A DNA stretch of 64,000 nt from Candidatus Atabeyarchaeum deiterrae (GCA_037310415.1 CP147780.1:2304001-2368000), one strand, 5' to 3'. Positions 11,007 to 25,974 are shown, counted from the first letter of the stretch. Made by a program: numbers and translations. Notes: generated by a model from the letters alone, not told the origin.

Positions 11007-12059
11007 TCAAGGCGGGATTATTGCTACCTTGGCTACGTCCCCCGTTTCCATCAGTTTAAGCGCTTCTACCACACTCTTCAGAGGCATCTCGCGAGTTATT
11101 ATTGCTTTGGTGTTTATGGCGCCGCACTCCAAAAGTTTCAACGCTTTTTCCACATACATCGGGGTGTGGTGAAAGACACCTTTGATTGTAAGTTCTTCGT
11201 AATGGAATCTTCTCGTATCTATAGTGAACTTTGTTCCAGCTGGAGCTCCTCCAAAAAGCATTGTGGTTCCAGCCTTTCTTGTCATCTCAATTGCCATTTC
11301 CCAGGTCTGTGGTAGCCCGACTGCTTCAATCACGATGTCTGCGCCTCTGCCCTCCGTTAGCTCTTTAACTTCTGCAATCTGTTCCTCATTCTTTGCGCTT
11401 ATCACAATATCAGCCCCAAGGGCTTTGGCCGTTTCCAAGCGTTTCTGAGAGAGGTCAGTGACGATCACTCTACAAGAGCCGCTTCGTTTGGCAAGCTGAA
11501 GTAGCATGAGACCTATCGGTCCTGAGCCTATTATGACTACAGTGTCAGCTAGACTTATGCCAGCGGCAGCTACACCGTGAGCCACGCACGCAAGTGGTTC
11601 GACCAGAGCGGCGTCTTTGAATGAGAGGGTTGGGGGGATCTCGAAGGTGTTTTGGCGTACAATGTGTTCAGGTACACGTATGTACTCCGCATATGCGCCG
11701 CTTATGATGTTCTCGTTCAGGTGCTCGCATATGTTCTGTCGACCCCTCTTGCAGTAGAAGCATTCATTGCATGGCGCTGAGTTCGCTGCGACAACCCTCA
11801 TACCTTGCTTGAATTGTTTCACCTTTTCGCCAACTCTCTCAACTACTCCCGCGAATTCATGACCTAGAATCATGGGAAGCTTCTGAACCACCACAGGGTG
11901 TCCCCTTTTGAAGGTCTTCAAGTCAGTACCGCATGTGAGCGCAACGTTCACCTTAACGAGAATATCTCCGGCACAGATCTCAGGAATATCCGTCTCTTCA
12001 TATTTCATATTGCCCGGTCCGTAGTACATTGCTGCTTTCATCTTGCCCTTTGCACTCAA
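11007..12059 (-). CDS. Zn-dependent alcohol dehydrogenase (threonine/sorbitol dehydrogenase-like)
   Basis: CGTD, GHEFAG, CNECFYC..C structural Zn site, GSGPIG Rossmann motif. Confidence 0.92.
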   Translation of the reverse strand: MSAKGKMKAAMYYGPGNMKYEETDIPEICAGDILVKVNVALTCGTDLKTFKRGHPVVVQKLPMILGHEFAGVVERVGEKVKQFKQGMRVVAANSAPCNECFYCKRGRQNICEHLNENIISGAYAEYIRVPEHIVRQNTFEIPPTLSFKDAALVEPLACVAHGVAAAGISLADTVVIIGSGPIGLMLLQLAKRSGSCRVIVTDLSQKRLETAKALGADIVISAKNEEQIAEVKELTEGRGADIVIEAVGLPQTWEMAIEMTRKAGTTMLFGGAPAGTKFTIDTRRFHYEELTIKGVFHHTPMYVEKALKLLECGAINTKAIITREMPLKSVVEALKLMETGDVAKVAIIPP

Positions 12060-12239
12060 CTTTCTCCGCCACCTCTGTAACTCGCCTGATACCCCTCAGT
12101 GGGATTAGGAAGAATAGACCAATAGTTCAGTCAAACTGTAAGTATTTCAGTACTGTCCTATCATATTGTGGAATACCTTTTTAAAATCTGTTGAGCAATT
12201 GCGAAAACTGCACGAAATGGAATGTGACAGCAGAGCATA

Positions 12240-12270
12240 CTACCTCTATCAAAGTGTTAGTTTGAAGAAC
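12240..12270 (+). repeat. Left terminal inverted repeat
   Basis: Matches the reverse complement of 24850-24880 at 6/6 terminal and 16/17 internal positions, with an identical 8-nt spacing between the two blocks. Confidence 0.75.
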
Positions 12271-12572
12271 CCTCACTCTCTTTTTTCCGTGCCGAAACCC
12301 TCTGTTTATGCGTCAATCACACCAGCTTTAGATGCGCCTCTCCTTCTCTTACTGAGTATTTAGTTACTAAGTGTGAGGCGTGCAACCATGCAATCATTCG
12401 CCTGGGACCTCTACCAATGTGAAAGCAAGCACTCGCATATCATCATAGTCGAGCACATCAAGGAACTACTCCGTGGGAAAGTCGCGAAGAAGTCCTTGCC
12501 TGCGCAACAATGTTGCTTCGGCCACTGATCTCGAGGGTCTTCTCACACTACTGCAAAAGGTGAAAGCACACT

Positions 12573-12761
12573 ATGACGAAGAAGATACTGGTAGGTTTTG
12601 AGGACGACCAATTTGAAGCACTCAAGACAGCCAAAGCTGGCCTATCTTGGCGAGACTTCATATTGAAGCTGCTACCTCAGAAATCGCCAGAACTCACTGG
12701 TACAAGCAAACCCCAAGCGGTAATGGAGATTGCTCTAACACTGAACTTCAAAAAAACTTAG
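12573..12761 (+). CDS. Small RHH/antitoxin-like DNA-binding protein (62 aa)
   Basis: MTKKILVGFEDDQFEALKTAKAGLSWRDFILKLL: beta-strand then two helices, a pattern typical of small archaeal MGE regulators; GGTGA SD upstream. Confidence 0.5.
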   Translation: MTKKILVGFEDDQFEALKTAKAGLSWRDFILKLLPQKSPELTGTSKPQAVMEIALTLNFKKT

Positions 12762-12886
12762 CAACCTGAACACCAAACTCGACCACGTGATTAACCTGCC
12801 ACACGAGGGTGAAACTATGCGACAAGAGCCACGTCAACCGGATATCGCCTTTAGATCACAGTTTCAGAACTAGGTGAACCGCAAGT

Positions 12887-15704
12887 CTTTCCAAACTACT
12901 AGGTCAATCTCAAACAGGAATTAGAGCAAAACGGTTTTCTAACGTTGTACACGTACTTTCCAAACTACTAGGTCAATCTCAAACTATCCAGATTCTTCTT
13001 TCCTTATTGGATGGACCATCTTTCCAAACTACTAGGTCAATCTCAAACGAAACTCGGGGTGCTGGCACACAGTGAATACCTATGCTTTCCAAACTACTAG
13101 GTCAATCTCAAACTGAAGACTCTGAGTTGGGTTCTCGTAGGCTTCACGTCTTTCCAAACTACTAGGTCAATCTCAAACGCTTCTAAGGCGTTTCTGGGGT
13201 TTCATTAGGAGACACTTTCCAAACTACTAGGTCAATCTCAAACCACTCTGGCTTGGAGGAGAACTCCAATGTGAGTTATCCTTTCCAAACTACTAGGTCA
13301 ATCTCAAACCGAGAAATGGGGCTTCCTCTTGCTGCCAGCAGCCTTAGCTTTCCAAACTACTAGGTCAATCTCAAACCCTCCGACCAACCTATTAGAATAA
13401 GGAAATGATTATTCTTTCCAAACTACTAGGTCAATCTCAAACGAAGGACGGGCTTATCTGTATGCCATATCCGCTTGCCTTTCCAAACTACTAGGTCAAT
13501 CTCAAACTAATGGAGGTCCTTGAGCATCTTGATGAGAAGCAGAGGGCTTTCCAAACTACTAGGTCAATCTCAAACGGGAATGTGGCATAAGAAGCCCTTG
13601 AAGTGGGTTCTCTTTCCAAACTACTAGGTCAATCTCAAACTAAGAAGCCGCAGGAAACGAAGAAACCTGAAGAACCTATCTTTCCAAACTACTAGGTCAA
13701 TCTCAAACAAATATTCTCTGATGCTTTCCGGTAACTCATTATTCTCCTTTCCAAACTACTAGGTCAATCTCAAACGAATACTACACAGTAGAACGCTGGA
13801 GCAAAATGATGACCTTTCCAAACTACTAGGTCAATCTCAAACTTGTGATTTTCACAACCATATTACATCACCACTCACATACTTTCCAAACTACTAGGTC
13901 AATCTCAAACTATATTGATGGAGATGAAGCCATATGAAAGATGAAGATCCTTTCCAAACTACTAGGTCAATCTCAAACTATATTGATGGAGATGAAGCCA
14001 TATGAAAGATGAAGATCCTTTCCAAACTACTAGGTCAATCTCAAACGAGGTAACACGTGCGTGGAATGCCTTCCAAGACGACATCTTTCCAAACTACTAG
14101 GTCAATCTCAAACTACCAATGTATTCCAAGGCATCATGCTTGACACCACATACTTTCCAAACTACTAGGTCAATCTCAAACCATAATACACCCCACTAAA
14201 GGAGAAGAACAACCATGATAAGAGCTTTCCAAACTACTAGGTCAATCTCAAACAGTTTAGGCCGAGGTGAAGAAGCTTGGGAGCATCTAGCTTTCCAAAC
14301 TACTAGGTCAATCTCAAACCTTTGGCGCCCAGTCCAAGACCCCATGCTCACCCCACTCTTTCCAAACTACTAGGTCAATCTCAAACCAGAGCTATTAGCA
14401 TGAAGGTGTTTCAACTATGGGTTCTTTCCAAACTACTAGGTCAATCTCAAACCACCGTATGGCACAATAGCCCTCGTTAACAATGGTCTCTTTCCAAACT
14501 ACTAGGTCAATCTCAAACGCAGCATCACAGTGTAGCGCTTGAACATGACGGGTGGGTCTTTCCAAACTACTAGGTCAATCTCAAACCATAATCAGCACCG
14601 GCTACACATACACGCTGTACTACTTTCCAAACTACTAGGTCAATCTCAAACAATATCACGAGCTGGCACACAATTGTTACTACAGGTTCGTCTTTCCAAA
14701 CTACTAGGTCAATCTCAAACAAGCAGACTACTATGTGGGCATACGGTTAACCCTCAACTTTCCAAACTACTAGGTCAATCTCAAACTCCGCGTCTCGCTG
14801 TGAGGTCTGCGGTTGCTTTCCTTCTTTCCAAACTACTAGGTCAATCTCAAACCAGATATAGCACTGGACAACTCAATTCATGTGGCAATTCTTTCCAAAC
14901 TACTAGGTCAATCTCAAACAGAGATCAAGATACTCCTTCCCATACGGCGGATCAGTCTTTCCAAACTACTAGGTCAATCTCAAACGTGGATATATCGCTC
15001 ACGGTTGCGTACTTTCTGCAATCTTTCCAAACTACTAGGTCAATCTCAAACGTGTGAGCACATGCTTCGAGTGGTCAACGAGCCAGTCTTTCCAAACTAC
15101 TAGGTCAATCTCAAACTCGACAGGACGGAAGGCGGCTACAACATCTTCATCATCTTTCCAAACTACTAGGTCAATCTCAAACTCTACACGATTGCCACAG
15201 CATACAGTGACTCACTGGCTTTCCAAACTACTAGGTCAATCTCAAACACAGGTGGACTCTACGGCATAATGAACCTAGGCATCTTTCCAAACTACTAGGT
15301 CAATCTCAAACTATCTTCTACTTCGTAGGCAACATAGTTTCTGGCATCTTTCCAAACTACTAGGTCAATCTCAAACGAAAGCCGGTGCAGCCATTGAGAT
15401 CTGCCTAACTCCTTTCCAAACTACTAGGTCAATCTCAAACTCTTCTGAGTCCAACTGGCCGGTGTACCGTCACCCCACTTTCCAAACTACTAGGTCAATC
15501 TCAAACCTTCCTCTGCCTCTACGTTGGGGTGCGCATGGTTCCCTTTCCAAACTACTAGGTCAATCTCAAACTTGAGGACCCACTTCTTATTTGGCTCGTA
15601 GCCATTCTTCCTTTCCAAACTACTAGGTCAATCTCAAACAGGTATGCAACATCATAGTTTCTTCTCAACCCTCATCTTTCCAAACTACTAGGTCAATCTC
15701 AAAC
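12887..15704 (-). CRISPR. CRISPR array: 43 identical 29-bp repeats, 42 spacers (about 35-43 bp)
   Basis: Repeat CTTTCCAAACTACTAGGTCAATCTCAAAC on + (GTTTGAGATTGACCTAGTAGTTTGGAAAG on -), counted manually. Orientation inferred from the GAAAG 3' end and the leader next to cas2. Confidence 0.98.
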
Positions 15705-15812
15705 CGAGCTTATGATGGCTGGTTTTGCCCAGAAATGCTCTTATTCTGGTTAGATTTGGTGTGCTGTTCGGTCAACCTGCGATACTGTTGCTTGCTTATA
15801 AAGGCTGACTAG
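15705..15812 (-). promoter_or_regulatory. CRISPR leader (short, about 108 bp)
   Basis: Non-coding gap between the cas2 stop and the first repeat; TATA-like CTTTATAAG on the minus strand near 15795-15803. Confidence 0.6.
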
Positions 15813-16076
15813 TCATAGTATGTTTTCTATTGGGTTCTTTTCTATGCCGATAACTTCGAGTTCGAGGTTCTTTTTGCTTGGGAGTTCGTATACTAACACG
15901 GAGTCTGCTTTCTCGTCTATCAGTTCTTTGAGTCTTGCCTTCACTCGTTCGAGTTGCGACGATGATAGGTTTCCTTCGAATACTGAGTTTTGTCTCCAAT
16001 GGAGATATGTTTTCAGGAACTTGTTCACTTTGTTTATGCGTTCCACGTTGATGTCGTAGACTATGACTACGTACGT
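15813..16076 (-). CDS. cas2: Cas2; conserved N-terminus begins at an ACG codon
   Basis: (T)YVVIVYDINVERINKVNKFLKTYLHWRQNSVFEG..DSVLVY..LEVIG. The ORF-track start at 16046 would delete the catalytic YD motif. Confidence 0.9.
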   Translation of the reverse strand, partial: TYVVIVYDINVERINKVNKFLKTYLHWRQNSVFEGNLSSSQLERVKARLKELIDEKADSVLVYELPSKKNLELEVIGIEKNPIENIL

Positions 16077-16079
16077 TTT

Positions 16080-17051
16080 CTACCACCACATTCTGAAGCT
16101 GTTGTACTTCTTGTCGCCGAGTATGTGTTTTATTAGTTTGTAGCATTCCAGTCTGATTAGGTACTTGTATGAGACTTTTCTGTTGAGGTCTGGGTGGCTG
16201 AGCGTTGTGCTGAGTTTTTCCTGGTATTCTTTGAGGAAGAGTTTCTTTCCTTTGTCTTTGAGTAGCACTCCTATTTCTCTGTCGAAGTCTTCTTCTGTGA
16301 GCATCTTGTTGTTTACGAGTGTGAAGATGACTCGCTCCACTATCACTGGCTTGAAGATGTCTGCGAGGTCGAGGGCGAGGGAGAATCTTCGCTCGGAAGG
16401 CTCGTGGAGGTAGCTTATTGAGGGGTGGAGATACGTGTTGTATATTTCGGAGAGAGCGGTTGAGTAGAGGAGGGAGTTGCCGAAGGAAATGAGGGCGTTC
16501 ATTTCACTTGTTGGCGGGCGGATTTCTCTCTCCTTCATCTCGAAGGTGCTAATGATTTCCCCGAAGCTCTGGTAGTAGGCTGCCCATATTCTGCCTTCGG
16601 CGCTCATCATGGTCGGGATGTCGCCATGTATGGACTCCTTTTCGATTGCTTCGATGAATTGGTCTACGTCTTTTTTCCTCTTCCTGTAGTATCTCAGCGT
16701 TTGAAGCACGTTGTGCTTCACTCCTTCTACGATCTCGCGGGCTATGTCTGCTCTTTTGCCAGCGTCTAGGTAGTGTTCTGCTTGTTTAACGACCACTAAC
16801 CCCGAGTTGAGCTGTATTCTCGGGTAGAGGGAGCCCTCATAGTAGCTGTATTTGTTGAAGAAGTGTGTGGGAACGCCCATCTTCATCAGTAGTGAGGAAG
16901 CACCTGAGCGCAGGGAGACTTTGCCGTAGCAGTAGATTTCGCTTATGTTCTCTATGGGAAGCGCCTTCTTCCCTTCCTTGTTCATGAAGTAGAGCGTGTT
17001 TCCACTTCTGATTAGGATTCCTTCCGAAGTTATGTAGAGTGGTTCTTTCAT
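16080..17051 (-). CDS. cas1: Cas1 (type I-B)
   Basis: GNTLYF, AEGRIWAAYY, NALISFGNSLLY, SYLHEP..RFSLALDLADIFKP, C-terminal MWW. Confidence 0.97.
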   Translation of the reverse strand: MKEPLYITSEGILIRSGNTLYFMNKEGKKALPIENISEIYCYGKVSLRSGASSLLMKMGVPTHFFNKYSYYEGSLYPRIQLNSGLVVVKQAEHYLDAGKRADIAREIVEGVKHNVLQTLRYYRKRKKDVDQFIEAIEKESIHGDIPTMMSAEGRIWAAYYQSFGEIISTFEMKEREIRPPTSEMNALISFGNSLLYSTALSEIYNTYLHPSISYLHEPSERRFSLALDLADIFKPVIVERVIFTLVNNKMLTEEDFDREIGVLLKDKGKKLFLKEYQEKLSTTLSHPDLNRKVSYKYLIRLECYKLIKHILGDKKYNSFRMWW

Positions 17052-17054
17052 TTC

Positions 17055-17561
17055 TCACACCATGCATAGTGCATAGTAAGAGCACCTTTTGCAGTAGCGT
17101 TTGGTCTCTGCTTTCGGCGGGTTTGGGTTCCGCGCAATCTTGGGGATCTCTTCGAGTATTACCTGTATTTCGTCCTCAATTTGCGGGGTGAGGGTGAGTT
17201 CTTCCCGCTTCTTCTCTCTCGGGTAGACCATCTCACCTTTTGCCGGTCTTCCAAGTTTCTTCGTGTACCATAGGTAGTAGTAGAGTTGCCACCTTGCTGG
17301 CTCTTTGAGCCGGCTGGACTTCTTGACCTCGAAGATCGTTATGTCGCCTTCTCTTCGGACGAAGTCGAATACTACTTCTCCCAGAGCGATGTTCTTCCTT
17401 TCCCTGGAAAAGCTCTTCTCGTGGATCAGCCTGCCCATCGAGATATTCTCGTCATCATAGTTCATGTTTATTTGGTGTGCGAAGAACCACAACTCTCGTT
17501 TACAGGACTTGTAGTATTGAACCATCACACCCGTTATTCTCATGAGGCTACTTGCCTCCAA
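17055..17561 (-). CDS. cas4: Cas4
   Basis: CKRELW, GRLIHE, D..EVKKS, QLYYY, CKRCSYYALC Fe-S motif. Confidence 0.95.
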   Translation of the reverse strand: MEASSLMRITGVMVQYYKSCKRELWFFAHQINMNYDDENISMGRLIHEKSFSRERKNIALGEVVFDFVRREGDITIFEVKKSSRLKEPARWQLYYYLWYTKKLGRPAKGEMVYPREKKREELTLTPQIEDEIQVILEEIPKIARNPNPPKAETKRYCKRCSYYALCMV

Positions 17562-17704
17562 TTACTCACCCCACGAGGCCCTTTCGCAGTTTGCTCCCGT
17601 CCCTATTATATTCGTCATTGTCGTCTCATGCGACTGCCCCCCCAGACGCAACCAAAGTACTCAGATTCCGTGCCTTCAGACTCGTACGGGCACGTTGCAG
17701 GCAT

Positions 17705-20131
17705 TTAGATTATTAACGGTCCTCCTTCGGGAATAAACCCCGTTTTTATGTCGTATTTTCTTTCCAGATCTGAAAGTTGGATGTGCCCAATATCATTCTC
17801 AAAACAGACACTACCAACCTTTCCCTTCGGAACTGATATTACGTAGCCGTAAAATCTTTTCTTAATCTCGAGAAGCCTCTCTCTCTTTTTCTTGGTGTCA
17901 TCCTTCTCCATTATTGATGCGAAAGTCTCCCATATTCTCCTAGCTTCGTCGTTAAGTTCCACAAATATGTCGACCTTTTCGTAGTCTTCCTCAATCAGTT
18001 TAAAGTCTCCAGTTTCCTTGAATTCGAGTTTGTTTAGATGCTCAAGTATTCTGCTTGACTCGTCGGTGCTTGTTGCGCGCTTAAGTCTTTCGAAATAGTC
18101 GTCAATGAGTCTGAGAAACTCCCTTTCTTCGATCTTGTCTCTATTCTTCAATACGTCTTTCGTCTTGTTCATAATGAAGCCGTCGTAGATGTACTTGTAG
18201 AATGGCTTGTTGGTTCGGTTGCCTTTGAGGATGTAGACGTTCACTTCTCCTTTCCTTTCTGCATTGTCATTGCGGTTGGATCTGCCTGCTGTCTGATTTA
18301 TGGAGTCGAGGGGGCAGAAATCGCGGTAGATCACATCTACGTCGATGTCAACACCCGCTTCGATCAGTTGAGTGGATACTATGATCTTCCTTTTTCCATT
18401 GCTCTTGTCCTTGATCCGTTTTATTCTTTCGAGCCGTTCAATAGGCACAATGTTTGTGGATAGATAAAGAACCTCGTTGGCTTCGTCATTGAGCTTGTTG
18501 AGCAGAGTGAACACCCTTTTTGATGAGTCGATTGTGTTCATGACTATCAGGAAATCTCTGTCTTTTCTCTTGCCTACGTCTTCTAAGACGATTTTTTCGA
18601 AGTCCTCGATTGGAGTCTCCTCAGTGATTCTGAGGTTTAGGACGGTTCTGTTAAAGCCCTCGAAATATCTCTCCTTGTTTTCCACAAGTGGCTTTGCTTC
18701 CCCAGTGGCTTCGTCAAGGATAAGTGGTTCTGTTGCGGTCATGAACACGAAGTAGGTCTTGAAGTACTTCGAGAGCAGTTGCAGGGTTTGCTTCAACAGA
18801 AGCCAGTACTCGTGCGGTATTGATTGAATCTCGTCGAGAAGTACAATCGAATTCACAATGTTGTGGAATTTCCTTATCGATCGGTTCTTGTTCGAGATTA
18901 GGCTGTGAAATAGCTGGACGAAGGTGGTGACAGTTATTTCCGAATTCCAGCCTTCTATTAGGAATTGGCTTCGGCCGGGGCTAAACTCATCTTCTTCGGT
19001 TTCGTAGAAAATATCTGAGAGATGATGGTGTTTGAGCAGAATGTTCGACGGGACAGTTTCCCCGAAGTGTGGAGACAATGCCTTGTCGAATTCTGAGAAG
19101 TTCTGGTCTATTATGCTCAGGAAGGGTAAAGAGTAGACTATTCGCGGTGTATACCCTCTTTCGTTTTTGACTCGGTCTCTCAGCTTCAGAGCGAATGAGA
19201 GTGCGGTTAGGGTTTTCCCTGCCCCTGTCGGAACGTTTAGGGAGAATATTCCGTTGTCGAGAGAGAGTATCTGGACTTGGCCATTGACTTCTCGGTATAT
19301 TTGCTCGCGTATCTCGTCGATTCTTTTCTTTGGTCTGCCAAACCTTGTTTGTTTGTAGAGGTCGACAAGATCAGGTGGGATGTCGGCGCGTTCGATGTTC
19401 CCCAATCCCATCGCCTCGGCTTTGTCCGAGTCAACCAGAACAGAGTAGAGAAATAGGGTTACGAAGTAGGGGAAGATTGAACCTCCATCCGAACGCAAAC
19501 GAGCCAAGGTTACGCTCTCCATAGCCAGTTCCTTCATGACCGTGAGGAAGCCCTCCTTGAACTTGGTGAATGATGGGGGTGAACTTGGGATCACGTCCGC
19601 AAGTATTTTTTCCATCTCCGCTTCGTCTATCGCGTCTAGCTGGGAGCAGAGTACTTGTTTTTCTCTCTCATCAGATACTTTCTCTCTCATCTCATTGACT
19701 TCGTCGTAACCGTTTCCGAGATTACCGTGATGCCTTTTCACAATTAGGAACGCAAGTACTGGCAACAAACAATAGACTTGATTCTCAGAGAAACCCATTT
19801 TTCTGATGGAATTCTTTGTGACATAATAGGTGAAAATCGCTGAGAGAAGACCGTGCTTCGTCTCTTTGTGTGCTTTTAGCCTTCTTTTCTTGCTTTCGTC
19901 TTTCTCGTTTAAGTACTCTTGGAAATATCTTGTGGCTTTCCCGAAATCGTGGGTCGCGCCGATCAGGTAAGCAAGCTCAGGTAGAGTTTCCGCGTTCAGA
20001 TGCCCCGAAAAGTCAAGCCTCTTGCTTTCGACGATTTTCCTGCAACTGTTCGCAACCTCTGAAAGATGGAGATTCAACGGCTTCTGCGGGTGAGACTGGA
20101 GTCTAGAAAGGAACAACTCTTGTCCCGTCAC
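17705..20131 (-). CDS. cas3: Cas3 (HD nuclease fused to SF2 helicase)
   Basis: HDFGK, RHH, DSD; VPTGAGKT, DEIQ, TAT, QTAGRSNR. Confidence 0.96.
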   Translation of the reverse strand: MTGQELFLSRLQSHPQKPLNLHLSEVANSCRKIVESKRLDFSGHLNAETLPELAYLIGATHDFGKATRYFQEYLNEKDESKKRRLKAHKETKHGLLSAIFTYYVTKNSIRKMGFSENQVYCLLPVLAFLIVKRHHGNLGNGYDEVNEMREKVSDEREKQVLCSQLDAIDEAEMEKILADVIPSSPPSFTKFKEGFLTVMKELAMESVTLARLRSDGGSIFPYFVTLFLYSVLVDSDKAEAMGLGNIERADIPPDLVDLYKQTRFGRPKKRIDEIREQIYREVNGQVQILSLDNGIFSLNVPTGAGKTLTALSFALKLRDRVKNERGYTPRIVYSLPFLSIIDQNFSEFDKALSPHFGETVPSNILLKHHHLSDIFYETEEDEFSPGRSQFLIEGWNSEITVTTFVQLFHSLISNKNRSIRKFHNIVNSIVLLDEIQSIPHEYWLLLKQTLQLLSKYFKTYFVFMTATEPLILDEATGEAKPLVENKERYFEGFNRTVLNLRITEETPIEDFEKIVLEDVGKRKDRDFLIVMNTIDSSKRVFTLLNKLNDEANEVLYLSTNIVPIERLERIKRIKDKSNGKRKIIVSTQLIEAGVDIDVDVIYRDFCPLDSINQTAGRSNRNDNAERKGEVNVYILKGNRTNKPFYKYIYDGFIMNKTKDVLKNRDKIEEREFLRLIDDYFERLKRATSTDESSRILEHLNKLEFKETGDFKLIEEDYEKVDIFVELNDEARRIWETFASIMEKDDTKKKRERLLEIKKRFYGYVISVPKGKVGSVCFENDIGHIQLSDLERKYDIKTGFIPEGGPLII

Positions 20132-20843
20132 CTACCTCCCAATACATGCTAGGCTGTGCCTTGATCGGATGACCTTCTTCCTCCACCAATATTTCTAGGT
20201 ACTCCTCCACCTCTCGATCTGCCTTCATCAAGGAGGGCACGGTTTCGAGAGAATATTTCTGGTCGGGCTCTGGCTGTACTTTGGCGAGCGGTTTGTCTGT
20301 GCCCGAGTTTCTGATCGGAACAACTGAATTCATCTCCAGATATTCACCGTGGCTCCCAGGTACTCTGGGTTCTGCATCGTACTCATCGATGTACCTGAAG
20401 TTGCCTATTAGCCCGCTTAGACCGAGAGCCGGGGTGTACACCGATTTGTGCTCGCCTAGCAGCTCCCTTAACCTTTCGTAGAACTGTTTGTCGCTGTGAA
20501 ACAGGTATAGTCTGTACTTCGGATCTTTGAGAAACTCGAAGTTGATGAGTGTGTGTTGCTTGAAGTAGTTCACCAGCGGAGGAGCGGCGAGGTGTTCGTT
20601 TTTCGTACTGATGAGGCTTATCGAGATTCTCGACTTCTTTACAGGGTTCAGCAGTCGAAGAGCGATTTTCGACTTGTCTTTGAAACGTTCTTGGTACTCG
20701 TTTCTCCCCAGACCAGCGATTGCCGAGATAAGTCCCACAATGGTCGTTCTGGGAGGAATTGAGTGGGTTAGAGGCGAGGTAGTTGTGTAACGTTTCTTGA
20801 AGTGGGCGTAGTCTCCCCAGACATCGAAAACAAGGACTCGCAT
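20103..20843 (-). CDS. cas5: Cas5 (type I-B)
   Basis: MRVLVFDVWGDYAHFKK..LTHSIPPRTTIVGLISAIAG; PKYRLY; YTPALG. Confidence 0.93.
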   Translation of the reverse strand: MRVLVFDVWGDYAHFKKRYTTTSPLTHSIPPRTTIVGLISAIAGLGRNEYQERFKDKSKIALRLLNPVKKSRISISLISTKNEHLAAPPLVNYFKQHTLINFEFLKDPKYRLYLFHSDKQFYERLRELLGEHKSVYTPALGLSGLIGNFRYIDEYDAEPRVPGSHGEYLEMNSVVPIRNSGTDKPLAKVQPEPDQKYSLETVPSLMKADREVEEYLEILVEEEGHPIKAQPSMYWEVGDGTRVVPF

Positions 20844-20854
20844 TTGCTTACACC

Positions 20855-21931
20855 CTATAATTCGAGCTTCTCGCACCTTAGCCCGGAATTCCTCAGAAAT
20901 TCGGCGAGTTCTTGCTCTTTGCCATCTATTGAAGTCTTGACCCTCTCATCCACCTTGTAGCCGATTGAAGAGATCTTTTCACTATGCTGCCTAAGCGTGT
21001 TAACGAGTCCCGTCACGTCAATCGTCAGATCCGAAATGCCTCGTAGCTGCTCATCAGGCACATCGCTTTTGTGTTCTATTAGCGCGTCTAGGTCGCCTAC
21101 GTGGTAGTTCTTGTCTTTGTAGTTCACCTTCAGCAGGAGGCGCGGCATCTGCCCGACTTTGGACCTAGAAATCAGGTTCTTTGTGCCATTCCACATGCCA
21201 TCGAGAAGGAGGGCTACGTCGTTTTCGGTGAGGCTGGTCACCTTGGCTTGGTTTTCGTTTATTATGCCGTAGAAGCATATCAGCGAATATGGGAGCACCC
21301 ACTCCTCCCTGAACGTCTTCTGCTCTTTCCTTGGCTTCGAGGCAAACGCACCTGTTCCCTTGACGTATTTCAGCTCCACCTTGTTAAGTGAGCGTCCCAT
21401 CTTAAACTGGACCGGGCCAGTATATTTTATGGAACCCTCCTCTTTCTCTGCAATCTCTTCTATCTCGTCAGACTCTTCGTTCTGGTTACTTTCCTTCTTC
21501 ATGTCGCCTTTCAGTGTGCCTAGAGGTATTACGCCACCAAAGAGCCTGACATCGATGCATTCTTCTACAATCTTGCCGGGGCTGTTTTTGAAATCCTTTG
21601 CCCTCATCTTCGCATCTTGAATGTTACCTTGATCGTCCTTGATCTCCCTCACGAAAATCTCTTTTCCCTTGAATTTGAGAAGGTGGTCTCTGATCGTTCT
21701 CTTCAATCTGACATCTGTCACTATGTTTTTGCGCGTTTCTTCGTCAATTCTCGGTTTGTTCTCGTCTGCGGGATCCCCATTTGGGTTGGAATCAGTTACG
21801 TCGTAGAGGAACAGGAGTTCAGACCTGTTTGCAACAATGTCGCTTACCGCTTTCGTATCCCCCTTTTCAGTTTTTCCTTTTTCTTTCTCAACCTTAGAGA
21901 TGGTTCTACTCATTGCTTTCAGCTCCTTCAT
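20855..21931 (-). CDS. cas7: Cas7 (Csh2/Cas7b type); alternative start at 21913
   Basis: NRSELLFLYD..NPNGDP..NKPRID, TDVRLKRTIRD, IDVRLFG, TGPVQF, SRSKVGQMPRLL. Confidence 0.94.
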   Translation of the reverse strand: MKELKAMSRTISKVEKEKGKTEKGDTKAVSDIVANRSELLFLYDVTDSNPNGDPADENKPRIDEETRKNIVTDVRLKRTIRDHLLKFKGKEIFVREIKDDQGNIQDAKMRAKDFKNSPGKIVEECIDVRLFGGVIPLGTLKGDMKKESNQNEESDEIEEIAEKEEGSIKYTGPVQFKMGRSLNKVELKYVKGTGAFASKPRKEQKTFREEWVLPYSLICFYGIINENQAKVTSLTENDVALLLDGMWNGTKNLISRSKVGQMPRLLLKVNYKDKNYHVGDLDALIEHKSDVPDEQLRGISDLTIDVTGLVNTLRQHSEKISSIGYKVDERVKTSIDGKEQELAEFLRNSGLRCEKLEL

Positions 21932-23762
21932 CTTTTTCTTCTTCTCTCCCCGTCTTGAACGCGTCTACCATATTCATTCCGACGACAAAGTAGTAACTCA
22001 CTTCATCATTGCTAAGACTCCAATGTTCACCAGCTGCCATGAAGTAGTTCGAGATCAGTTTCTCAAGCTCTCTGTAGTAGTTCTTGCCATATTCTTCCAA
22101 TTTCCCTTGTATTGCGGGCAAGAGCGCTTTCAGCTTTCTTTCGTCTAACTTTAGCCCGTTCAACTTCTCAACAAAGGGCCTAGACCCCCTCTCTTGGAAC
22201 TGTATGTTGAGCAACTTCTGTGTTAATACGCCTATCAGAAATATCGCCTTCTTCGTGTCAGAGTTAAAGAAGTCTTTGAATTCCGCGAATATCCCGTTGG
22301 CTACCTCAGTGTAGTTGACGGCTCCGCCACCTTTGCCGACTGCCTGCATCGGTAATTTCGCCACCGAGTCTTTTACACCTCCATAGTCATGCAATATTCC
22401 TAATCCGTGAAGATACGTGAAGAGCATTAGACCCTGCAGGGTTAGCTTCTTTACTTTCCGTCCTTTAACGAATTCATTTCTTATCCTTCTAATCAGAAAC
22501 GCCATTATGAGCGCATAGTCCACGTCCCGTCCCACAAACATCTTTCCAACTGTGTCAAGATAGTACTTTTGCGATGTGTCCTTCCCCTTTGACTCAAGGA
22601 AGATGTCGTGCAAGATTTTGAAGTTAAACGCGAGTCTTCCGTTTGCAAACAGTTTGATACTATCTACCTTTATCTTAGTTTCATATAGCCTTTTCAGTCT
22701 TGACGGCAGCACCTCGTTGATGCTCAGTAGTATCTTTAGCTCCTTCGGTTTCGGGCGTTCGTAGAACAAGAAGCTCAATGTAAGAACATCATTCTTCTGT
22801 TCACCTAGAAGCCGAAGCATTGTATCCTCACTGGCAACTAGCCCCCCAAGCCAGCCTCTCTCTTTTTCGGAGAAGGAAGGATCACGAGCATATTTCTCGA
22901 CTATGGCGAATACGTCATCATATGCATCCCTATTTGTTCTGAAAATGAACCTTGGGATAAGGTAGTATCTGAAACCTCCATAGAAACTGAGATTCAGCTT
23001 CTTTCCTAAATACCTCTTTCCAGCTTCAAGCTTAAGAGTGCAAGCGTGACAGATGGGATAAAGTTTCCAGGCATTTTGTCGGTTTAGCCCAGGCGCGAAA
23101 CCGCGCTTATCCAGCGTGTAGAATGGGAAAATATCGGATGTAAAGCCGTATACCTTTTCAGATTTCCTGAGACATATGCTGCAGATCGCATCTCTGCCGA
23201 GTGACGTAGTATTATATTTGTTATAGTAGTCAGAAGTCAGACGTTCAATGAAGACCTCTTCAAATATCTTATGATCACCGATGTATGTTGAGCTTCCGTT
23301 TTCTTCGAATTTGAGTGTCAATAGTGGTTTCCGTTCTTTTGGATCTAGGTCTGACGATGATTCCTCCATTTCTTTGATGATTCTTTCTTTGTTCCTTTCA
23401 AGAGTTGCTTTGATCTCCGCAAATTTCCCGCGCTCCTCTGGAGCCAGTCTTAGTCTTTTCATGTTTTCATCTGAAAACCAATAAAGAAACTTCTTTTCGA
23501 ATGTACGTTGAGGATCTAATAGTACAGAGGAGGGAGACACATTGGATCCCTGTGAAGCGCCGCGCCTGTAGAGGTATTTCTCTTTGGAAGCGAAGTCATA
23601 TTCTTCCAACTCCACCTTCTCGTATTCACAGCCGCCAGAGGTTCTCTTGAGGACTATGCTCAAAACATGCTTCGCTCTTGGATCGTCAACAAGTGTCGAT
23701 AGACCGCCTTTCTCTTCCTTGGAAAGCATGTACTCGCCGAGTTCCGCGACTGCTTCAATCAT
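21906..23762 (-). CDS. cas8b: Cas8b large subunit (TM1802/Csh1-like)
   Basis: MIEAVAELG start, CSIC and C..C Zn motif, FYTLDKRGF, YYLIP, C-terminal AIFLIGVL..LLNIQ..YYFVVGM; position in operon. Confidence 0.88.
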   Translation of the reverse strand: MIEAVAELGEYMLSKEEKGGLSTLVDDPRAKHVLSIVLKRTSGGCEYEKVELEEYDFASKEKYLYRRGASQGSNVSPSSVLLDPQRTFEKKFLYWFSDENMKRLRLAPEERGKFAEIKATLERNKERIIKEMEESSSDLDPKERKPLLTLKFEENGSSTYIGDHKIFEEVFIERLTSDYYNKYNTTSLGRDAICSICLRKSEKVYGFTSDIFPFYTLDKRGFAPGLNRQNAWKLYPICHACTLKLEAGKRYLGKKLNLSFYGGFRYYLIPRFIFRTNRDAYDDVFAIVEKYARDPSFSEKERGWLGGLVASEDTMLRLLGEQKNDVLTLSFLFYERPKPKELKILLSINEVLPSRLKRLYETKIKVDSIKLFANGRLAFNFKILHDIFLESKGKDTSQKYYLDTVGKMFVGRDVDYALIMAFLIRRIRNEFVKGRKVKKLTLQGLMLFTYLHGLGILHDYGGVKDSVAKLPMQAVGKGGGAVNYTEVANGIFAEFKDFFNSDTKKAIFLIGVLTQKLLNIQFQERGSRPFVEKLNGLKLDERKLKALLPAIQGKLEEYGKNYYRELEKLISNYFMAAGEHWSLSNDEVSYYFVVGMNMVDAFKTGREEEKDEGAESNE

Positions 23763-23995
23763 TTCTTCTTCCCATCCTCGCTCGGAAAACCTCTGCACCA
23801 TCGTCGTATTCGTCGAGCATGACCCTCTCCTCACTATTACTTATGTCTTGACCATATAAATGATTACCATTGGGCGCGTTCGAAATTCTGCTGAGTTACT
23901 GGAACTGCATGAAGGAACATGGAATCATAGCCGATAACATGTTGAGCTGACATGTTTGTCGGTACACTTTGCGCCCGTAGGAAGCCTGCGGACCG

Positions 23996-24703
23996 TTATC
24001 TCAGGGGGTTTATGAAGCCGAAACCTAGGCTGTTTTTCTCTCCGAGTCCGCAGTCCATTATGAACTCATAGAATTTTCTGTTCTCAACTGTGTCGATGCC
24101 GTATTTTTCAAGGAGTTTCCAGACGCTCCCTATTATTATGAACTCTTTCTCTCCTCGCTTTGCTCGTACTGAGACTTCCTTTCTGAATACTAGTCTATCA
24201 AAGATGTTCTCAGCAAGGTCGTATTTTTCCGAGTAGAAGGCGTTATACTTTCGTATGGCGTTCTCCTTGATGCGCTGCAAGAAGAAACTGAGGTCCCCGC
24301 TTCTCTCGAAGGAGTAGTAACGGTTCTCACGGCTGTCCTCGTAAATGGTTATGGGGCTTGCAGAGATGAATCGACTGCTCAAATCGGGTCGAACTACTTT
24401 GTACCTCGCTTCAATCTCGTGGTCGCCGAGTTTGAACCTTCGCTCTGCTCTAAGGGTTTTCGCCATGGATTCTATTAGGTATTCATTAGGGGATGAAATT
24501 AGAATGTTCTTTTCCTGTCCTACTCTGAAGTCGTCTATTGGAAAGATGTCTGAGAAGCAGAAGAACTTGAACTTTGGTAGATTATGGTATTCTTCAACAT
24601 CTTCTTCTCTGATAAGCGAGTAGACGAGCCCTTGAACAGTGTGCTTGTTTATCGAGTCGTAGGAGAAATCATCTAAAGTCGAAAACGTGAGAAGTAGACG
24701 CAT
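23996..24703 (-). CDS. cas6: Cas6 endoribonuclease
   Basis: FKFFCFSD, ISSP, C-terminal Gly-rich GLGEKNSLGFG. Confidence 0.95.
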   Translation of the reverse strand: MRLLLTFSTLDDFSYDSINKHTVQGLVYSLIREEDVEEYHNLPKFKFFCFSDIFPIDDFRVGQEKNILISSPNEYLIESMAKTLRAERRFKLGDHEIEARYKVVRPDLSSRFISASPITIYEDSRENRYYSFERSGDLSFFLQRIKENAIRKYNAFYSEKYDLAENIFDRLVFRKEVSVRAKRGEKEFIIIGSVWKLLEKYGIDTVENRKFYEFIMDCGLGEKNSLGFGFINPLR

Positions 24704-24849
24704 AGGTAGGAATTCATGAGCCTTTCTAATTTAAACTTGTTGACAAGACGGGTAGGTTTCACCGATCTGCCAAGGCCGCTTCCGTAGAGTTCATGAGCCA
24801 AGTGTTCAGCATATCGAGATCTCTACCTCGAAGCATTGAGCATAAGCGA

Positions 24850-24880
24850 GTTCTTGAAACTAACACAAATGTGTAGGTAG
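24850..24880 (-). repeat. Right terminal inverted repeat
   Basis: GTTCTTGAAACTAACAC-aaatgtgt-AGGTAG, followed by AGCATA. Confidence 0.75.
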
Positions 24881-25167
24881 AGCATATTATTGTCCAATAG
24901 GAGGAAGTCGAGACGAGGTGGGGGCGGCTGCACAGCGCTGATTATCAGGAAGATGTAATGAATACGTAGGTGAAAAGGCAGTTCCTAAGATAAGAGTCGA
25001 CGCAATGCAAGAAACGCTCTGCAACCCTTAACTATTTAAAGAGGAGCTATTTTTACTAGTGTTTTAACCCTTAACAATCATTCGGAAGAGGAACATGTGA
25101 AGTAGTGGTTTCATTGTTTCTCTCTAATAGGAATAAGAATGGTTGAATTTAGAGGTGAAAAAGAAGC

Positions 25168-25974
25168 ATGGCAAAGCTAACCGGGAAAGTTGCAATAATA
25201 ACTGGAGCAGCTAGAGGCATAGGACAGGCAACAGCTGAACTCTTCGCCAAGGAAGGAGCAGACATAGTTGTCGCAGACATGGCAGACGGAGCCGAGACAG
25301 TGAACAAGGTTAAAGCCACCGGAAGAAAAGCGATCTTCGTGAAGACTGATGTTTCAAAGTTTGACGAAGTCACCAAGTTAGTTGAGGCAACAATCAAGGA
25401 ATTCAAGAAGGTAGACATCCTGATCAACAACGCTGGGATAATTCGAGACAAAACTATCTGGAACATGACGCCAGAAGACTACGACCTAGTCCTTGGCATT
25501 AATCTGAAGGGCTGCTGGAATTGCATAAAAGCTGTGGCATCCGGATGGCGTGAGCGTGCCAAGGCTGACAAGACCTTCAAAGCAAAAATCGTAAGCGTAT
25601 CCTCCATAGCTGGATTACATGGGAACTTTGGACAAACAAACTACTCCGCAGCGAAGTCTGGCATCGTAGGTCTAACCAAGACTGCAGCTAAGGAGCTGGC
25701 AGCGGCAAACGTCTACGCTAACTGTGTCGCTCTGGGATTCATCGAGACTCAGATGACAGCGGAAACCGCCCTCTCAATTGGAGCCAAGACTGTTGATGAA
25801 GGCTTCAAGATAATGAAGAACAACATTGTCGGAGCGGGGCGAGAAGGAGTAGTAGCAAACCAGATCCCTGCAAAGCCGCTCGAAGCAGCTAAAGTCATCC
25901 TCTTCTTGGCATCAGACGACTCAGACATCATAAACGGACAGGTAATCGAGGCTTACGCGGGCTGGAAGATGTAG
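25168..25974 (+). CDS. Short-chain dehydrogenase/reductase (FabG-like)
   Basis: TGAARGIG, NNAGI, YSAAK. Confidence 0.92.
   Translation: MAKLTGKVAIITGAARGIGQATAELFAKEGADIVVADMADGAETVNKVKATGRKAIFVKTDVSKFDEVTKLVEATIKEFKKVDILINNAGIIRDKTIWNMTPEDYDLVLGINLKGCWNCIKAVASGWRERAKADKTFKAKIVSVSSIAGLHGNFGQTNYSAAKSGIVGLTKTAAKELAAANVYANCVALGFIETQMTAETALSIGAKTVDEGFKIMKNNIVGAGREGVVANQIPAKPLEAAKVILFLASDDSDIINGQVIEAYAGWKM

What the first reader, a model, noticed from the sequence alone, without database searches (positions are those of the whole stretch)
12234..24886. An entire type I-B CRISPR-Cas system packaged as a transposase-less mobile element (TIRs plus 6-bp target duplication)
Seen: the left end reads AGCATA|CTACCT-ctatcaaa-GTGTTAGTTTGAAGAAC (12234-12270). 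The right end reads GTTCTTGAAACTAACAC-aaatgtgt-AGGTAG|AGCATA (24850-24886). The ends are bipartite inverted repeats (6/6 terminal, 16/17 internal, equal 8-nt spacing), and AGCATA lies immediately outside each. They enclose cas6 to cas2, the array and a few tiny ORFs, and separate two ordinary metabolic genes (ADH and SDR). Established: bipartite IRs with a short target duplication are the signature of DDE transposition. CASTs carry TnsABC and usually lack Cas3; casposons use a solo Cas1 with PolB. Neither description fits, because this element has intact Cas3, an adaptation module and no recognisable mobility gene. Inference: this is a non-autonomous immunity transposon mobilised in trans. Alternatively, the ends are tyrosine-recombinase sites: a circle junction would read AGGTAG-AGCATA-CTACCT, and the empty site GACAgcag-AGCATA-ttatTGTC is also weakly dyadic. 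Mobilisation by the element's own Cas1 is a more speculative third option.
Basis: partly seen in the sequence, partly recalled or inferred. Interest (0 to 1): 0.92.

Follow-up and report, generated by a model that had tools for sequence, protein, structure and literature searches.

The report
CRISPR-Cas cassette inserted as discrete element
A complete type I-B CRISPR-Cas immune system in an Asgard archaeon (Atabeyarchaeia) is a discrete 12.6-kb insertion with inverted-repeat ends, a 6-bp duplication and no recombinase gene, and strains about 96% identical carry the untouched empty site; this shows a whole immune system moving as one cassette, though the enzyme that moved it is unidentified.

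Summary
Window 12240-24880 (12,641 bp) carries cas6-cas8b-cas7-cas5b-cas3-cas4-cas1-cas2, a 43-repeat array and about 615 bp of orphan sequence. It ends in CTACCT-N8-17-mer inverted repeats (6/6 and 16/17), and AGCATA abuts both ends.

Two JGI metagenome contigs (about 96% nt identity; SDR protein identical) and one contig from an independent soil run have ADH and SDR adjacent. Their site equals the window with 12240-24886 removed, with no footprint. Two sister-genus genomes also have the empty site with a single copy of the core (AGCATA or AGCATG).

The ends are found nowhere else: not in this genome, 400 Asgard genomes, 185,579 species representatives, JGI metagenomes or IMG/VR. No recombinase lies inside. 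The sister genome (Atabeyarchaeia-1) carries a related I-B locus at a different site, and that site is empty here.

So a once-mobile, non-autonomous CRISPR-Cas cassette is well supported. The mechanism is not settled.
- **Favoured:** site-specific recombination of a circular form. The duplication sits in an imperfect 19-bp repeat (15/19) between the element's right end and the target.
- **Close rival:** DDE transposition in trans.

With only one copy known, the variable-versus-constant duplication test could not be run.

The parts
11007..12059 (-). Left flanking host gene: zinc-type alcohol dehydrogenase
   Evidence: Pfam ADH_N and ADH_zinc_N. The orthologue lies next to the SDR gene in G001, G002, L099 and L100.
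12234..12239 (.). Left copy of the duplicated AGCATA. Identity extends to AGAGCATA (12232-12239) and, imperfectly, to 12221-12239.
   Evidence: Present as a single copy in the empty sites.
12240..12270 (+). Left inverted end: CTACCT, 8 nt, then the 17-mer GTGTTAGTTTGAAGAAC
   Evidence: (I4)
12271..12886 (.). Element-specific non-cas DNA holding only tiny orphan ORFs. One example is the 62-aa ORF at 12573-12761, with a faint VapB/RHH-like hit at E 0.044.
   Evidence: no homologue among 5.8 billion clusters; absent from G001 and G002
12887..15704 (-). CRISPR array: 43 identical 29-nt repeats and 42 spacers of 35-43 nt, one of them duplicated. On the minus strand the repeat ends in TTTGGAAAG, so the array is probably transcribed with the cas genes.
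   Evidence: G001 has the same repeat.
15705..15812 (-). Short region between cas2 and the array: the putative leader
   Evidence: This is an inference from repeat orientation and from the degenerate distal repeat in G001.
15813..16079 (-). cas2. It is in frame directly after the cas1 TAG stop, and no canonical start precedes the first beta strand.
   Evidence: Pfam CRISPR_Cas2, E 8.8e-18. Translations.
16080..17051 (-). cas1
   Evidence: Pfam Cas_Cas1, E 2.7e-81
17055..17561 (-). cas4
   Evidence: Pfam Cas_Cas4, E 2.7e-53
17705..20131 (-). cas3 (HD nuclease plus helicase)
20103..20876 (-). cas5b
   Evidence: TIGR02592
20855..21931 (-). cas7/csh2
   Evidence: TIGR02590
21906..23834 (-). cas8b/csh1
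   Evidence: PF09484, E 2.3e-147; TIGR02556 and TIGR02591
23996..24703 (-). cas6
   Evidence: It is 91% identical to G001 Cas6.
24850..24880 (-). Right inverted end: 17-mer, 8 nt, then AGGTAG
   Evidence: Identical in seven independent Logan contigs.
24881..24886 (.). Right copy of the duplicated AGCATA
25168..25974 (+). Right flanking host gene: short-chain dehydrogenase/reductase
   Evidence: Pfam adh_short

Best explanation
**Shown.** Window 12240-24880 is a 12,641-bp cassette that entered the ADH-SDR intergenic region of this Atabeyarchaeia chromosome as one piece. It duplicated AGCATA, and the ancestral state of the site is empty. The cassette holds a complete type I-B CRISPR-Cas system and no recombinase, and its two ends are 31-nt bipartite inverted repeats.

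**Inferred.** The cassette is non-autonomous, or has lost its recombinase. It was integrated by an enzyme supplied in trans that recognises the inverted ends.

The mechanism I favour is site-specific recombination of a circular form. Its joined ends make a 68-bp palindrome (17-mer, N8, AGGTAG, AGCATA, CTACCT, N8, 17-mer) that acts as attP. Strand exchange occurs in the 6-8 bp core that attP shares with a chromosomal attB, and attB is itself weakly dyadic about the same centre. On this reading the cassette resembles a cis-mobilisable element: att sites without an integrase.

Nothing in this genome carries matching sites, so the cassette is probably stranded here now while its CRISPR-Cas system works as ordinary host immunity. 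I am more than 0.9 confident that this is a discrete insertion. The confidence value of 0.45 is for the recombinase class.
For: - **Empty sites in close relatives.** L099 and L100 (JGI metagenomes, about 96% nt identity, SDR protein 100% identical) read exactly as the window with 12240-24886 removed.
- **Independent run.** A contig from run X7 joins 12239 to the right flank, with 115 intervening letters that equal the length of 24887-25001.
- **Outgroups.** G001 and G002 have ADH and SDR adjacent, with a single copy of the core (AGCATA in G002, AGCATG in G001) in a conserved block.
- **No recombinase fits inside.** cas genes and the array fill 12887-24703, and the remaining 615 bp holds only orphan ORFs of 65 aa or less.
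- **Support for recombination rather than a plain target duplication.** The repeat extends to 15/19 between the left flank and the right-end interior. Outside the 6 bp that a duplication copies automatically, 9 of 13 positions match; my binomial estimate is p about 0.001, or about 0.01-0.02 after allowing for post-hoc choice of window.
- **Symmetry.** AGCATA is exactly centred both in the joined-end palindrome and in the target dyad GACA-N14-TGTC.
- **Lineage context.** Documented Atabeyarchaeia integrated elements mostly use tyrosine integrases, short att repeats (11 bp) and circular forms (PMC11529989). This genome encodes three tyrosine recombinases.
- **Polymorphism.** The cassette is joined to two different flank haplotypes. 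In X5 a minor strain with L099-like SNPs runs into the left end. A third haplotype has a scarless empty site. This fits reversible, precise recombination or spread through the flanks.
Against: - There is no integrase in or next to the cassette.
- The target half-sites next to the core resemble CTACCT poorly (3/6 and 2/6).
- No other DNA with these ends was found anywhere, so no helper element is known.
- Flush terminal inverted repeats with a 6-bp duplication are also the textbook DDE signature.
- The extended repeat was noticed after the fact.
Confidence: 0.45

Rival explanations
1. The cassette is a non-autonomous DDE transposon, of the mobile insertion cassette kind. A transposase encoded elsewhere bound the bipartite terminal inverted repeats and inserted the cassette by staggered cleavage, making a 6-bp (possibly 8-bp) target-site duplication.
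For: - The inverted repeats are flush with a short direct repeat, and a tip-plus-inner-block layout is typical of IS ends.
- The empty site is base-perfect with a single AGCATA.
- This genome holds other transposase-less units bounded by inverted repeats with 8-bp duplications: tnpB-only units with GGTTCTGTTACCT-type ends and the duplication TATATGAA. It also holds one IS6-family transposase. So trans-mobilisation of such elements is plausible in this lineage.
- Palindromic target preference is common among transposases.
Against: - Only one copy exists, and no partner with matching ends was found in this genome (17-mer, up to 2 mismatches), in 400 Asgard genomes (up to 3 mismatches), or as exact matches in 185,579 species genomes, JGI metagenomes and IMG/VR.
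- The resident IS6-like ends are unrelated apart from a GGTTCT hexamer.
- The 15/19 repeat between the element end and the target is unexpected for a target duplication.
- No DDE_Tnp_1 (Pfam PF01609) transposase is present; other DDE families were not screened.
Confidence: 0.33
2. The insertion was a one-off illegitimate event. A circular or hairpin-ended DNA carrying the CRISPR-Cas locus and a long palindrome was broken at the palindrome centre, or crossed over at 8-19 bp of microhomology (Campbell-type), and was joined into the chromosome by host repair. No dedicated recombinase and no dedicated ends were involved.
For: - An imperfect 19-bp repeat flanks the insert, as a single crossover at short homology would leave.
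- Only one copy is known, and no helper was found.
Against: - The crossover falls exactly at the centre of a 68-bp two-block palindrome and of the target dyad, which random microhomology would not do.
- Eight base pairs of perfect homology is very short for host recombination.
- The two conserved blocks at fixed spacing look like protein-binding sites.
Confidence: 0.1
3. The cassette's own Cas1, with Cas2 and Cas4, integrated it in a casposon-like way.
For: Cas1 is the only integrase-type enzyme encoded inside. Casposons do have terminal inverted repeats and target duplications (my own knowledge).
Against: - Casposase makes duplications of about 14-15 bp, and casposons carry PolB. Cas1-Cas2 staggers its cuts by one repeat length (29 nt here). 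The observed duplication is 6-8 bp.
- This Cas1 is an ordinary I-B adaptation Cas1 beside Cas2, Cas4 and an active-looking array.
- The nearly identical adaptation module in G001 has no such ends.
Confidence: 0.02
4. The locus is not mobile. It is ancestral, the relatives lost it, and the inverted repeats are chance or regulatory sites.
For: None beyond the fact that a deletion between 8-bp repeats is formally possible.
Against: - Both outgroup genomes and three independent close-relative contigs share the same scarless empty site.
- The inverted repeats exceed all 1000 shuffles and abut the breakpoints exactly.
- The 17-mer is not upstream of cas6 in six related I-B loci and is not repeated in the genome.
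Confidence: 0.02

Closest known systems
Cis-mobilisable elements (CIMEs) and other integrase-less integrated elements bounded by att sites, mobilised in trans by a related integrative element (described for streptococcal ICEs; from my own knowledge)
   Same: A discrete island bounded by short repeats and recombination-site-like ends. It has cargo only and no recombinase of its own. The empty site is scarless.
   Different: No helper element or integrase with matching sites is known. The host is an Asgard archaeon. The cargo is a complete CRISPR-Cas system. The att-like site is a two-block 68-bp palindrome rather than a tRNA-derived repeat.
Mobile insertion cassettes (MICs) and other non-autonomous IS derivatives carrying passenger genes, such as MIC231 of Bacillus cereus (from my own knowledge)
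   Same: Terminal inverted repeats, a short flanking direct repeat, no transposase and passenger genes.
   Different: At 12.6 kb it is far larger than typical MICs. It is single-copy. No parent IS with the same ends was found. The repeat extends imperfectly into the element.
Integrated mobile elements of Atabeyarchaeia (Valentin-Alvarado et al. 2024, Genome Res, PMC11529989): Yucahu-i, iMGE-xvi and two 'defense islands'
   Same: The same organisms and the same sampling site. These are elements of 1.3-40 kb with short att repeats (11 bp) and presence/absence polymorphism among strains.
   Different: Those described in the main text carry tyrosine integrases and use an AT-rich att (AATTAACTTAT). 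The main text does not describe the CRISPR-Cas locus as an element. I could not read Supplemental Table S1, so I cannot exclude that this locus is one of the two listed 'defense islands'.
CRISPR-associated transposons (Tn7-like CASTs, including I-B CASTs)
   Same: CRISPR-Cas genes lie between transposon-like ends.
   Different: There is no TnsA/B/C or TniQ. An intact Cas3 and a Cas1-Cas2-Cas4 adaptation module are present. The array is long, with 42 spacers. The ends are not Tn7-like. It is not a member.
Casposons
   Same: Terminal inverted repeats, a target duplication and a Cas1 gene inside.
   Different: There is no PolB. The duplication is 6-8 bp rather than about 14-15 bp. The Cas1 is a standard adaptation Cas1. 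It is not a member.

Membership tests
Type I-B CRISPR-Cas system | Cas8b/Csh1 large subunit with Cas7/Csh2 and Cas5b | tested here: met
   TIGR02591, TIGR02556, TIGR02590 and TIGR02592 all score above their cut-offs. PF09484 scores E 2.3e-147.
Type I-B CRISPR-Cas system | Cas3 with HD nuclease and helicase; Cas6; adaptation genes cas1, cas2, cas4; CRISPR array | tested here: met
   There are 43 repeats.
Non-autonomous DDE transposon / mobile insertion cassette | Terminal inverted repeats flush with a short target-site duplication, and no transposase | tested here: met
   No recombinase ORF was found.
Non-autonomous DDE transposon / mobile insertion cassette | Several copies, or a parent IS, sharing the ends, with different duplications at different sites | tested here: not met
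   The ends occur once. No match was found in the own genome, 400 Asgard genomes, GTDB species representatives, JGI metagenomes or IMG/VR.
Integrase-mediated integrative element (tyrosine or serine recombinase) | Identical core shared by attL and attR, present once in the empty site | tested here: met
   AGCATA/AGAGCATA lies within a 15/19 imperfect repeat and is single in L099, L100 and G002 (G001 reads AGCATG).
Integrase-mediated integrative element (tyrosine or serine recombinase) | Integrase gene inside the element | tested here: not met
   There is no such ORF. The three PF00589 genes of the genome lie 277 kb or more away.
Integrase-mediated integrative element (tyrosine or serine recombinase) | Excised circular form carrying the joined ends | tested here: inconclusive
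   No 24880-to-12240 joint appeared in four runs. However, only assembled contigs were available, and these drop rare forms.
Xer/dif-exploiting element (IMEX) | The junction resembles the host dif site (11-6-11) | tested here: not met
   The dif-like site beside the Xer-like gene reads ATTGCACATAA-GATGTA-TTATGTGCAGT. The cassette's junction arms are unrelated to it. No AGGTAG-N6-CTACCT site occurs elsewhere in the genome beyond chance.
CRISPR-associated transposon (Tn7-like) | tnsA/B/C and tniQ inside; effector without Cas3 | tested here: not met
   Only cas genes are present, and Cas3 is intact.
Casposon | Cas1 casposase with family B polymerase; duplication of about 14-15 bp | tested here: not met
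   There is no PolB, and the duplication is 6-8 bp.

The most novel reading that the evidence does not exclude
The 31-nt bipartite ends define a previously undescribed family of recombinase-less defence cassettes in Asgard archaea. A dedicated helper recombinase, encoded on a virus or plasmid, would shuttle them between chromosomes, so that whole CRISPR-Cas systems are exchanged as plug-in units. The reciprocal empty and filled sites in the two Atabeyarchaeia genomes, and the swapped effector module, would be traces of that traffic.
Probability: 0.12. Interest if true: 0.85.

Novelty: new variant of a known kind. Interest (0 to 1): 0.6.

Why it matters
CRISPR-Cas loci are known to move between genomes often, but the physical unit and the mechanism are rarely visible. 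Here the unit is defined to the base: 12,641 bp holding array, adaptation and interference genes, with inverted ends, a 6-bp duplication and scarless empty sites in strains about 96% identical. The host belongs to the Asgard archaea, whose mobile elements are barely charted.

The case gives a concrete substrate (the 68-bp joined-end palindrome) and a concrete target (the AGCATA dyad between the ADH and SDR genes) for finding the enzyme that moves immune systems in these archaea.

It also shows modular turnover. The sister genome keeps the same repeat, cas6 and adaptation genes but has a different effector module, and its locus lies at another site.

Tried and rejected
- **Second copies or a helper with the same ends.** None was found, and all hits were at chance level. 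I searched the own genome (17-mer, up to 2 mismatches), G001 and G002 (up to 3), 400 Asgard genomes (31-nt pattern, up to 3), GTDB species representatives (exact 17-mer: 47 single hits, none with CTACCT at -8), JGI metagenome contigs (0 hits) and IMG/VR (2 hits without extension).
- **Ends at the related G001 locus.** No inverted or direct repeats above chance were found. The G001 filled site and the own empty site could not be aligned in the intergenic DNA, so that locus has no defined borders.
- **The 17-mer as a cas6 promoter or regulatory element.** It is absent upstream of cas6 in six related I-B loci.
- **IMEX/dif idea.** Rejected.
- **tRNA or RNA gene as integration target.** None was found in the window.
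- **Near-identical cassettes elsewhere.** Searches with Cas6, Cas8b and the 62-aa ORF found nothing outside this population. The next-best Cas6 is 69% identical, the next-best Cas8b 62%, and the ORF is an orphan. All contigs with the exact Cas6, or with its cluster variant P0122, show the same SDR junction.
- **Circle junction or empty-site reads within the source samples.** No such joints were seen, and the depth of the cassette equals that of the flanks in X1, X2 and X5. These were contigs only, so this does not show absence.
- **Resemblance to resident IS6-like ends.** Only a shared GGTTCT hexamer was found. I judge this to be chance.
- **Supplementary table of PMC11529989.** It is not held.
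- **The 116-aa ORF at 15796-16146.** I first took it for cas2, but it is the wrong frame.

Full report
**1. Observation.** The two ends read exactly as reported.
- Left: AGCATA at 12234-12239, CTACCT at 12240-12245, eight unrelated bases, then GTGTTAGTTTGAAGAAC at 12254-12270.
- Right: GTTCTTGAAACTAACAC at 24850-24866, eight bases, AGGTAG at 24875-24880, then AGCATA at 24881-24886.

The tips are 6/6 complementary and the inner blocks 16/17, at identical spacing. The spacers match at only 1/8.

The match is not chance.
- Between the two intergenic regions, the best 17-mer inverted match in 1000 shuffles was 15/17.
- At the equivalent flanks of the sister genome's CRISPR locus, the best is 12/17.
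- The 17-mer occurs only at these two places in the 2,756,679-bp genome; the only third hit, with 2 mismatches, is at control level.

There are two refinements. The perfect direct repeat is 8 bp (AGAGCATA), overlapping the last two bases of AGGTAG, so the duplication is 6-8 bp. It is also embedded in a 19-bp imperfect repeat: AATGTGACAGCAGAGCATA on the left flank against AATGTGTAGGTAGAGCATA inside the right end (15/19).

**2. Contents.** On the minus strand, from right to left, lie cas6, cas8b/csh1, cas7/csh2, cas5b, cas3 (HD plus helicase), cas4, cas1 and cas2. After a gap of about 108 bp comes an array of 43 identical 29-nt repeats at 12887-15704, with 42 spacers, one of them duplicated.

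Between the array and the left end lie about 615 bp with only tiny ORFs. The 62-aa ORF at 12573-12761 has no homologue among 5.8 billion protein clusters and only a faint RHH/VapB-like hit. There is no room for a transposase or integrase.

The flanking genes are a zinc alcohol dehydrogenase and a short-chain dehydrogenase, transcribed divergently. G+C content does not differ from the surroundings. The window holds no tRNA or Rfam RNA.

**3. Organism.** The closest complete genome, G001 (2,808,651 bp), is CP147779.1, 'Promethearchaeati archaeon SRVP18_Atabeyarchaeia-1'. The window therefore comes from the sister Asgard lineage. This is presumably the Atabeyarchaeia-2 genome of Valentin-Alvarado et al. 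2024 (PMC11529989), which is my inference from kinship and from the wetland runs that hold it.

That paper lists 18 integrated elements, including two 'defense islands'. Its main text does not describe this CRISPR-Cas locus as an element or mention these ends. Its Supplemental Table S1 was not available.

**4. The decisive comparison.**
- In G001 and G002 (same family, about 74% nt identity) the ADH and SDR genes are neighbours, 370-475 bp apart. The intergenic alignment shows a conserved block with a single copy of the core at the junction, AGCATA in G002 and AGCATG in G001.
- Two JGI metagenome contigs carry an SDR protein identical to the window's and an ADH from the same 90% cluster. They are L099 (sample 3300039214, 7,316 bp) and L100 (sample 3300032797, 6,559 bp). 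They are about 94-97% identical in DNA to both flanks.
- Their intergenic sequence equals the window with 12240-24886 deleted. The 60 bases to the left and 17 to the right of the junction are identical, with one AGCATA and no footprint.
- A 796-nt contig from an unrelated soil study (run X7) independently joins position 12239 to the right flank. Its 115 intervening letters equal the length of 24887-25001.

So the ancestral state is empty. The cassette was inserted precisely, and its borders are exactly the inverted repeats.

**5. Population picture.**
- In the source wetland runs, the cassette has the same depth as its flanks, and no excision or circle joints appear. These were contigs only, so rare forms would be missed.
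- Seven independent Logan contigs have an identical right junction.
- In run X5 a minor strain (depth about 35) carries most of the L099-type SNPs in the left flank yet runs into the left end. It then jumps from 12248 to 12345.

The cassette is therefore present on at least two flank haplotypes and absent from a third.

**6. A related locus elsewhere.** G001 has an I-B locus with the same repeat. Across the array and cas2-cas1-cas4 it is about 76% identical in DNA, and cas6 is 87% identical in DNA (91% in protein). Its cas3, cas5, cas7 and cas8 genes do not align at the DNA level and differ in length.

That locus lies between a 532-aa gene (unannotated here) and a 406-aa gene. In the window's genome those two genes are adjacent. 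The two genomes therefore have reciprocal filled and empty sites. No inverted or direct repeats mark the G001 locus.

**7. Search for copies or a helper.** The ends were not found anywhere else.
- Cas6, Cas8b and the orphan ORF have no near-identical copies outside this population.
- The 17-mer is not a cas6 upstream element in related loci.
- The genome encodes three tyrosine recombinases (one Xer-like, beside a dif-like site) and one IS6-family transposase, and has no DDE_Tnp_1 (Pfam PF01609) transposase. None of their known sites resembles the cassette's ends.

**8. Mechanism.**

*Shown:* a single precise insertion with a 6-8 bp repeat, bipartite inverted ends, and no recombinase inside.

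*Inferred:* an enzyme acting in trans, or a gene since lost.

Two classes of enzyme fit.
- **DDE transposition** would explain flush inverted repeats with a short duplication. This genome also holds other transposase-less elements bounded by inverted repeats, with 8-bp duplications.
- **Site-specific recombination of a circle** would explain the same picture, because the joined ends form a palindrome around AGCATA. It also explains why the repeat extends imperfectly for 19 bp. Outside the six bases that a duplication copies automatically, 9 of 13 positions match; my binomial estimate is p about 0.001, or about 0.01-0.02 after allowing for post-hoc choice. It further explains why AGCATA is centred in a dyad in the target, and it matches how known Atabeyarchaeia elements integrate.

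My odds are about 0.45 for site-specific recombination, 0.33 for DDE transposition, 0.1 for a one-off illegitimate event, and about 0.02 each for Cas1-mediated integration and for 'not mobile'. With a single copy, the test of variable against constant duplication could not be run.

**9. Verdict.** I know of no described case of a complete CRISPR-Cas system bounded in this way, and two literature searches found none. The general phenomena, defence islands and non-autonomous elements, are well known, so I class this as a new variant of a known kind.

Noticed in passing
window 16040-16091 (minus strand); also L077 12140-12199: The cas1 stop codon TAG is in frame with cas2 and is followed directly by cas2's first beta strand (MWW*KTYVVIVYDI...). 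No ATG, GTG or TTG start lies before that strand. The arrangement is identical in the sister genome G001. Possible explanations are a non-canonical start, a truncated Cas2, or stop read-through giving a Cas1-Cas2 fusion.
   Followed up: partly
L077/L078 (G001:C1:2220934-2231902) versus window 12885-24740: The sister genome's I-B locus shares the repeat, cas2-cas1-cas4 and cas6 with this cassette. Its cas3, cas5, cas7 and cas8 module differs (757, 233, 315 and 444 aa), and it sits at another chromosomal site that is empty in this genome. This indicates an effector-module swap plus relocation.
   Followed up: partly
window 12221-12239 plus 24887-24897; empty sites in L012, L013, L099, L100: The insertion point lies in the only well-conserved block of the divergent ADH/SDR intergenic region. 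In G002 the block is a clean dyad (ATGGTA-GAGCA-TACCAT). It is probably an operator for the two promoters, and the cassette has now split it.
   Followed up: no
window 12248-12345, run X5: A minor strain (depth about 37) joins 12248 to 12345. That skips 96 bp, including the left 17-mer, and the same strain has L099-like SNPs in the left flank. It may be a variant cassette with a crippled left end.
   Followed up: no
window 17636, 22842, 22863 (run X2; locus L091): In one wetland sample the only contig over the cas genes has single-base indels, and cas8b is called as two ORFs (323 and 327 aa). This is either a strain with a broken cas8b or an assembly error.
   Followed up: no
window 12950-15710, runs X2 and X5: Many contig joints inside the array skip or replace spacers, so spacer content varies among coexisting strains. 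One spacer is duplicated in tandem (repeat-spacer units at 13879-13946 and 13947-14014).
   Followed up: no
G000:C1:2274599-2275890 and about 2230447: tnpB-only units are bounded by GGTTCTGTTACCT-type (IS6-like) inverted repeats with 8-bp duplications. The genome has a single IS6-family transposase at about 1,518,918. These look like candidates for mobilisation in trans. They were first flagged by earlier notes of this scan.
   Followed up: partly
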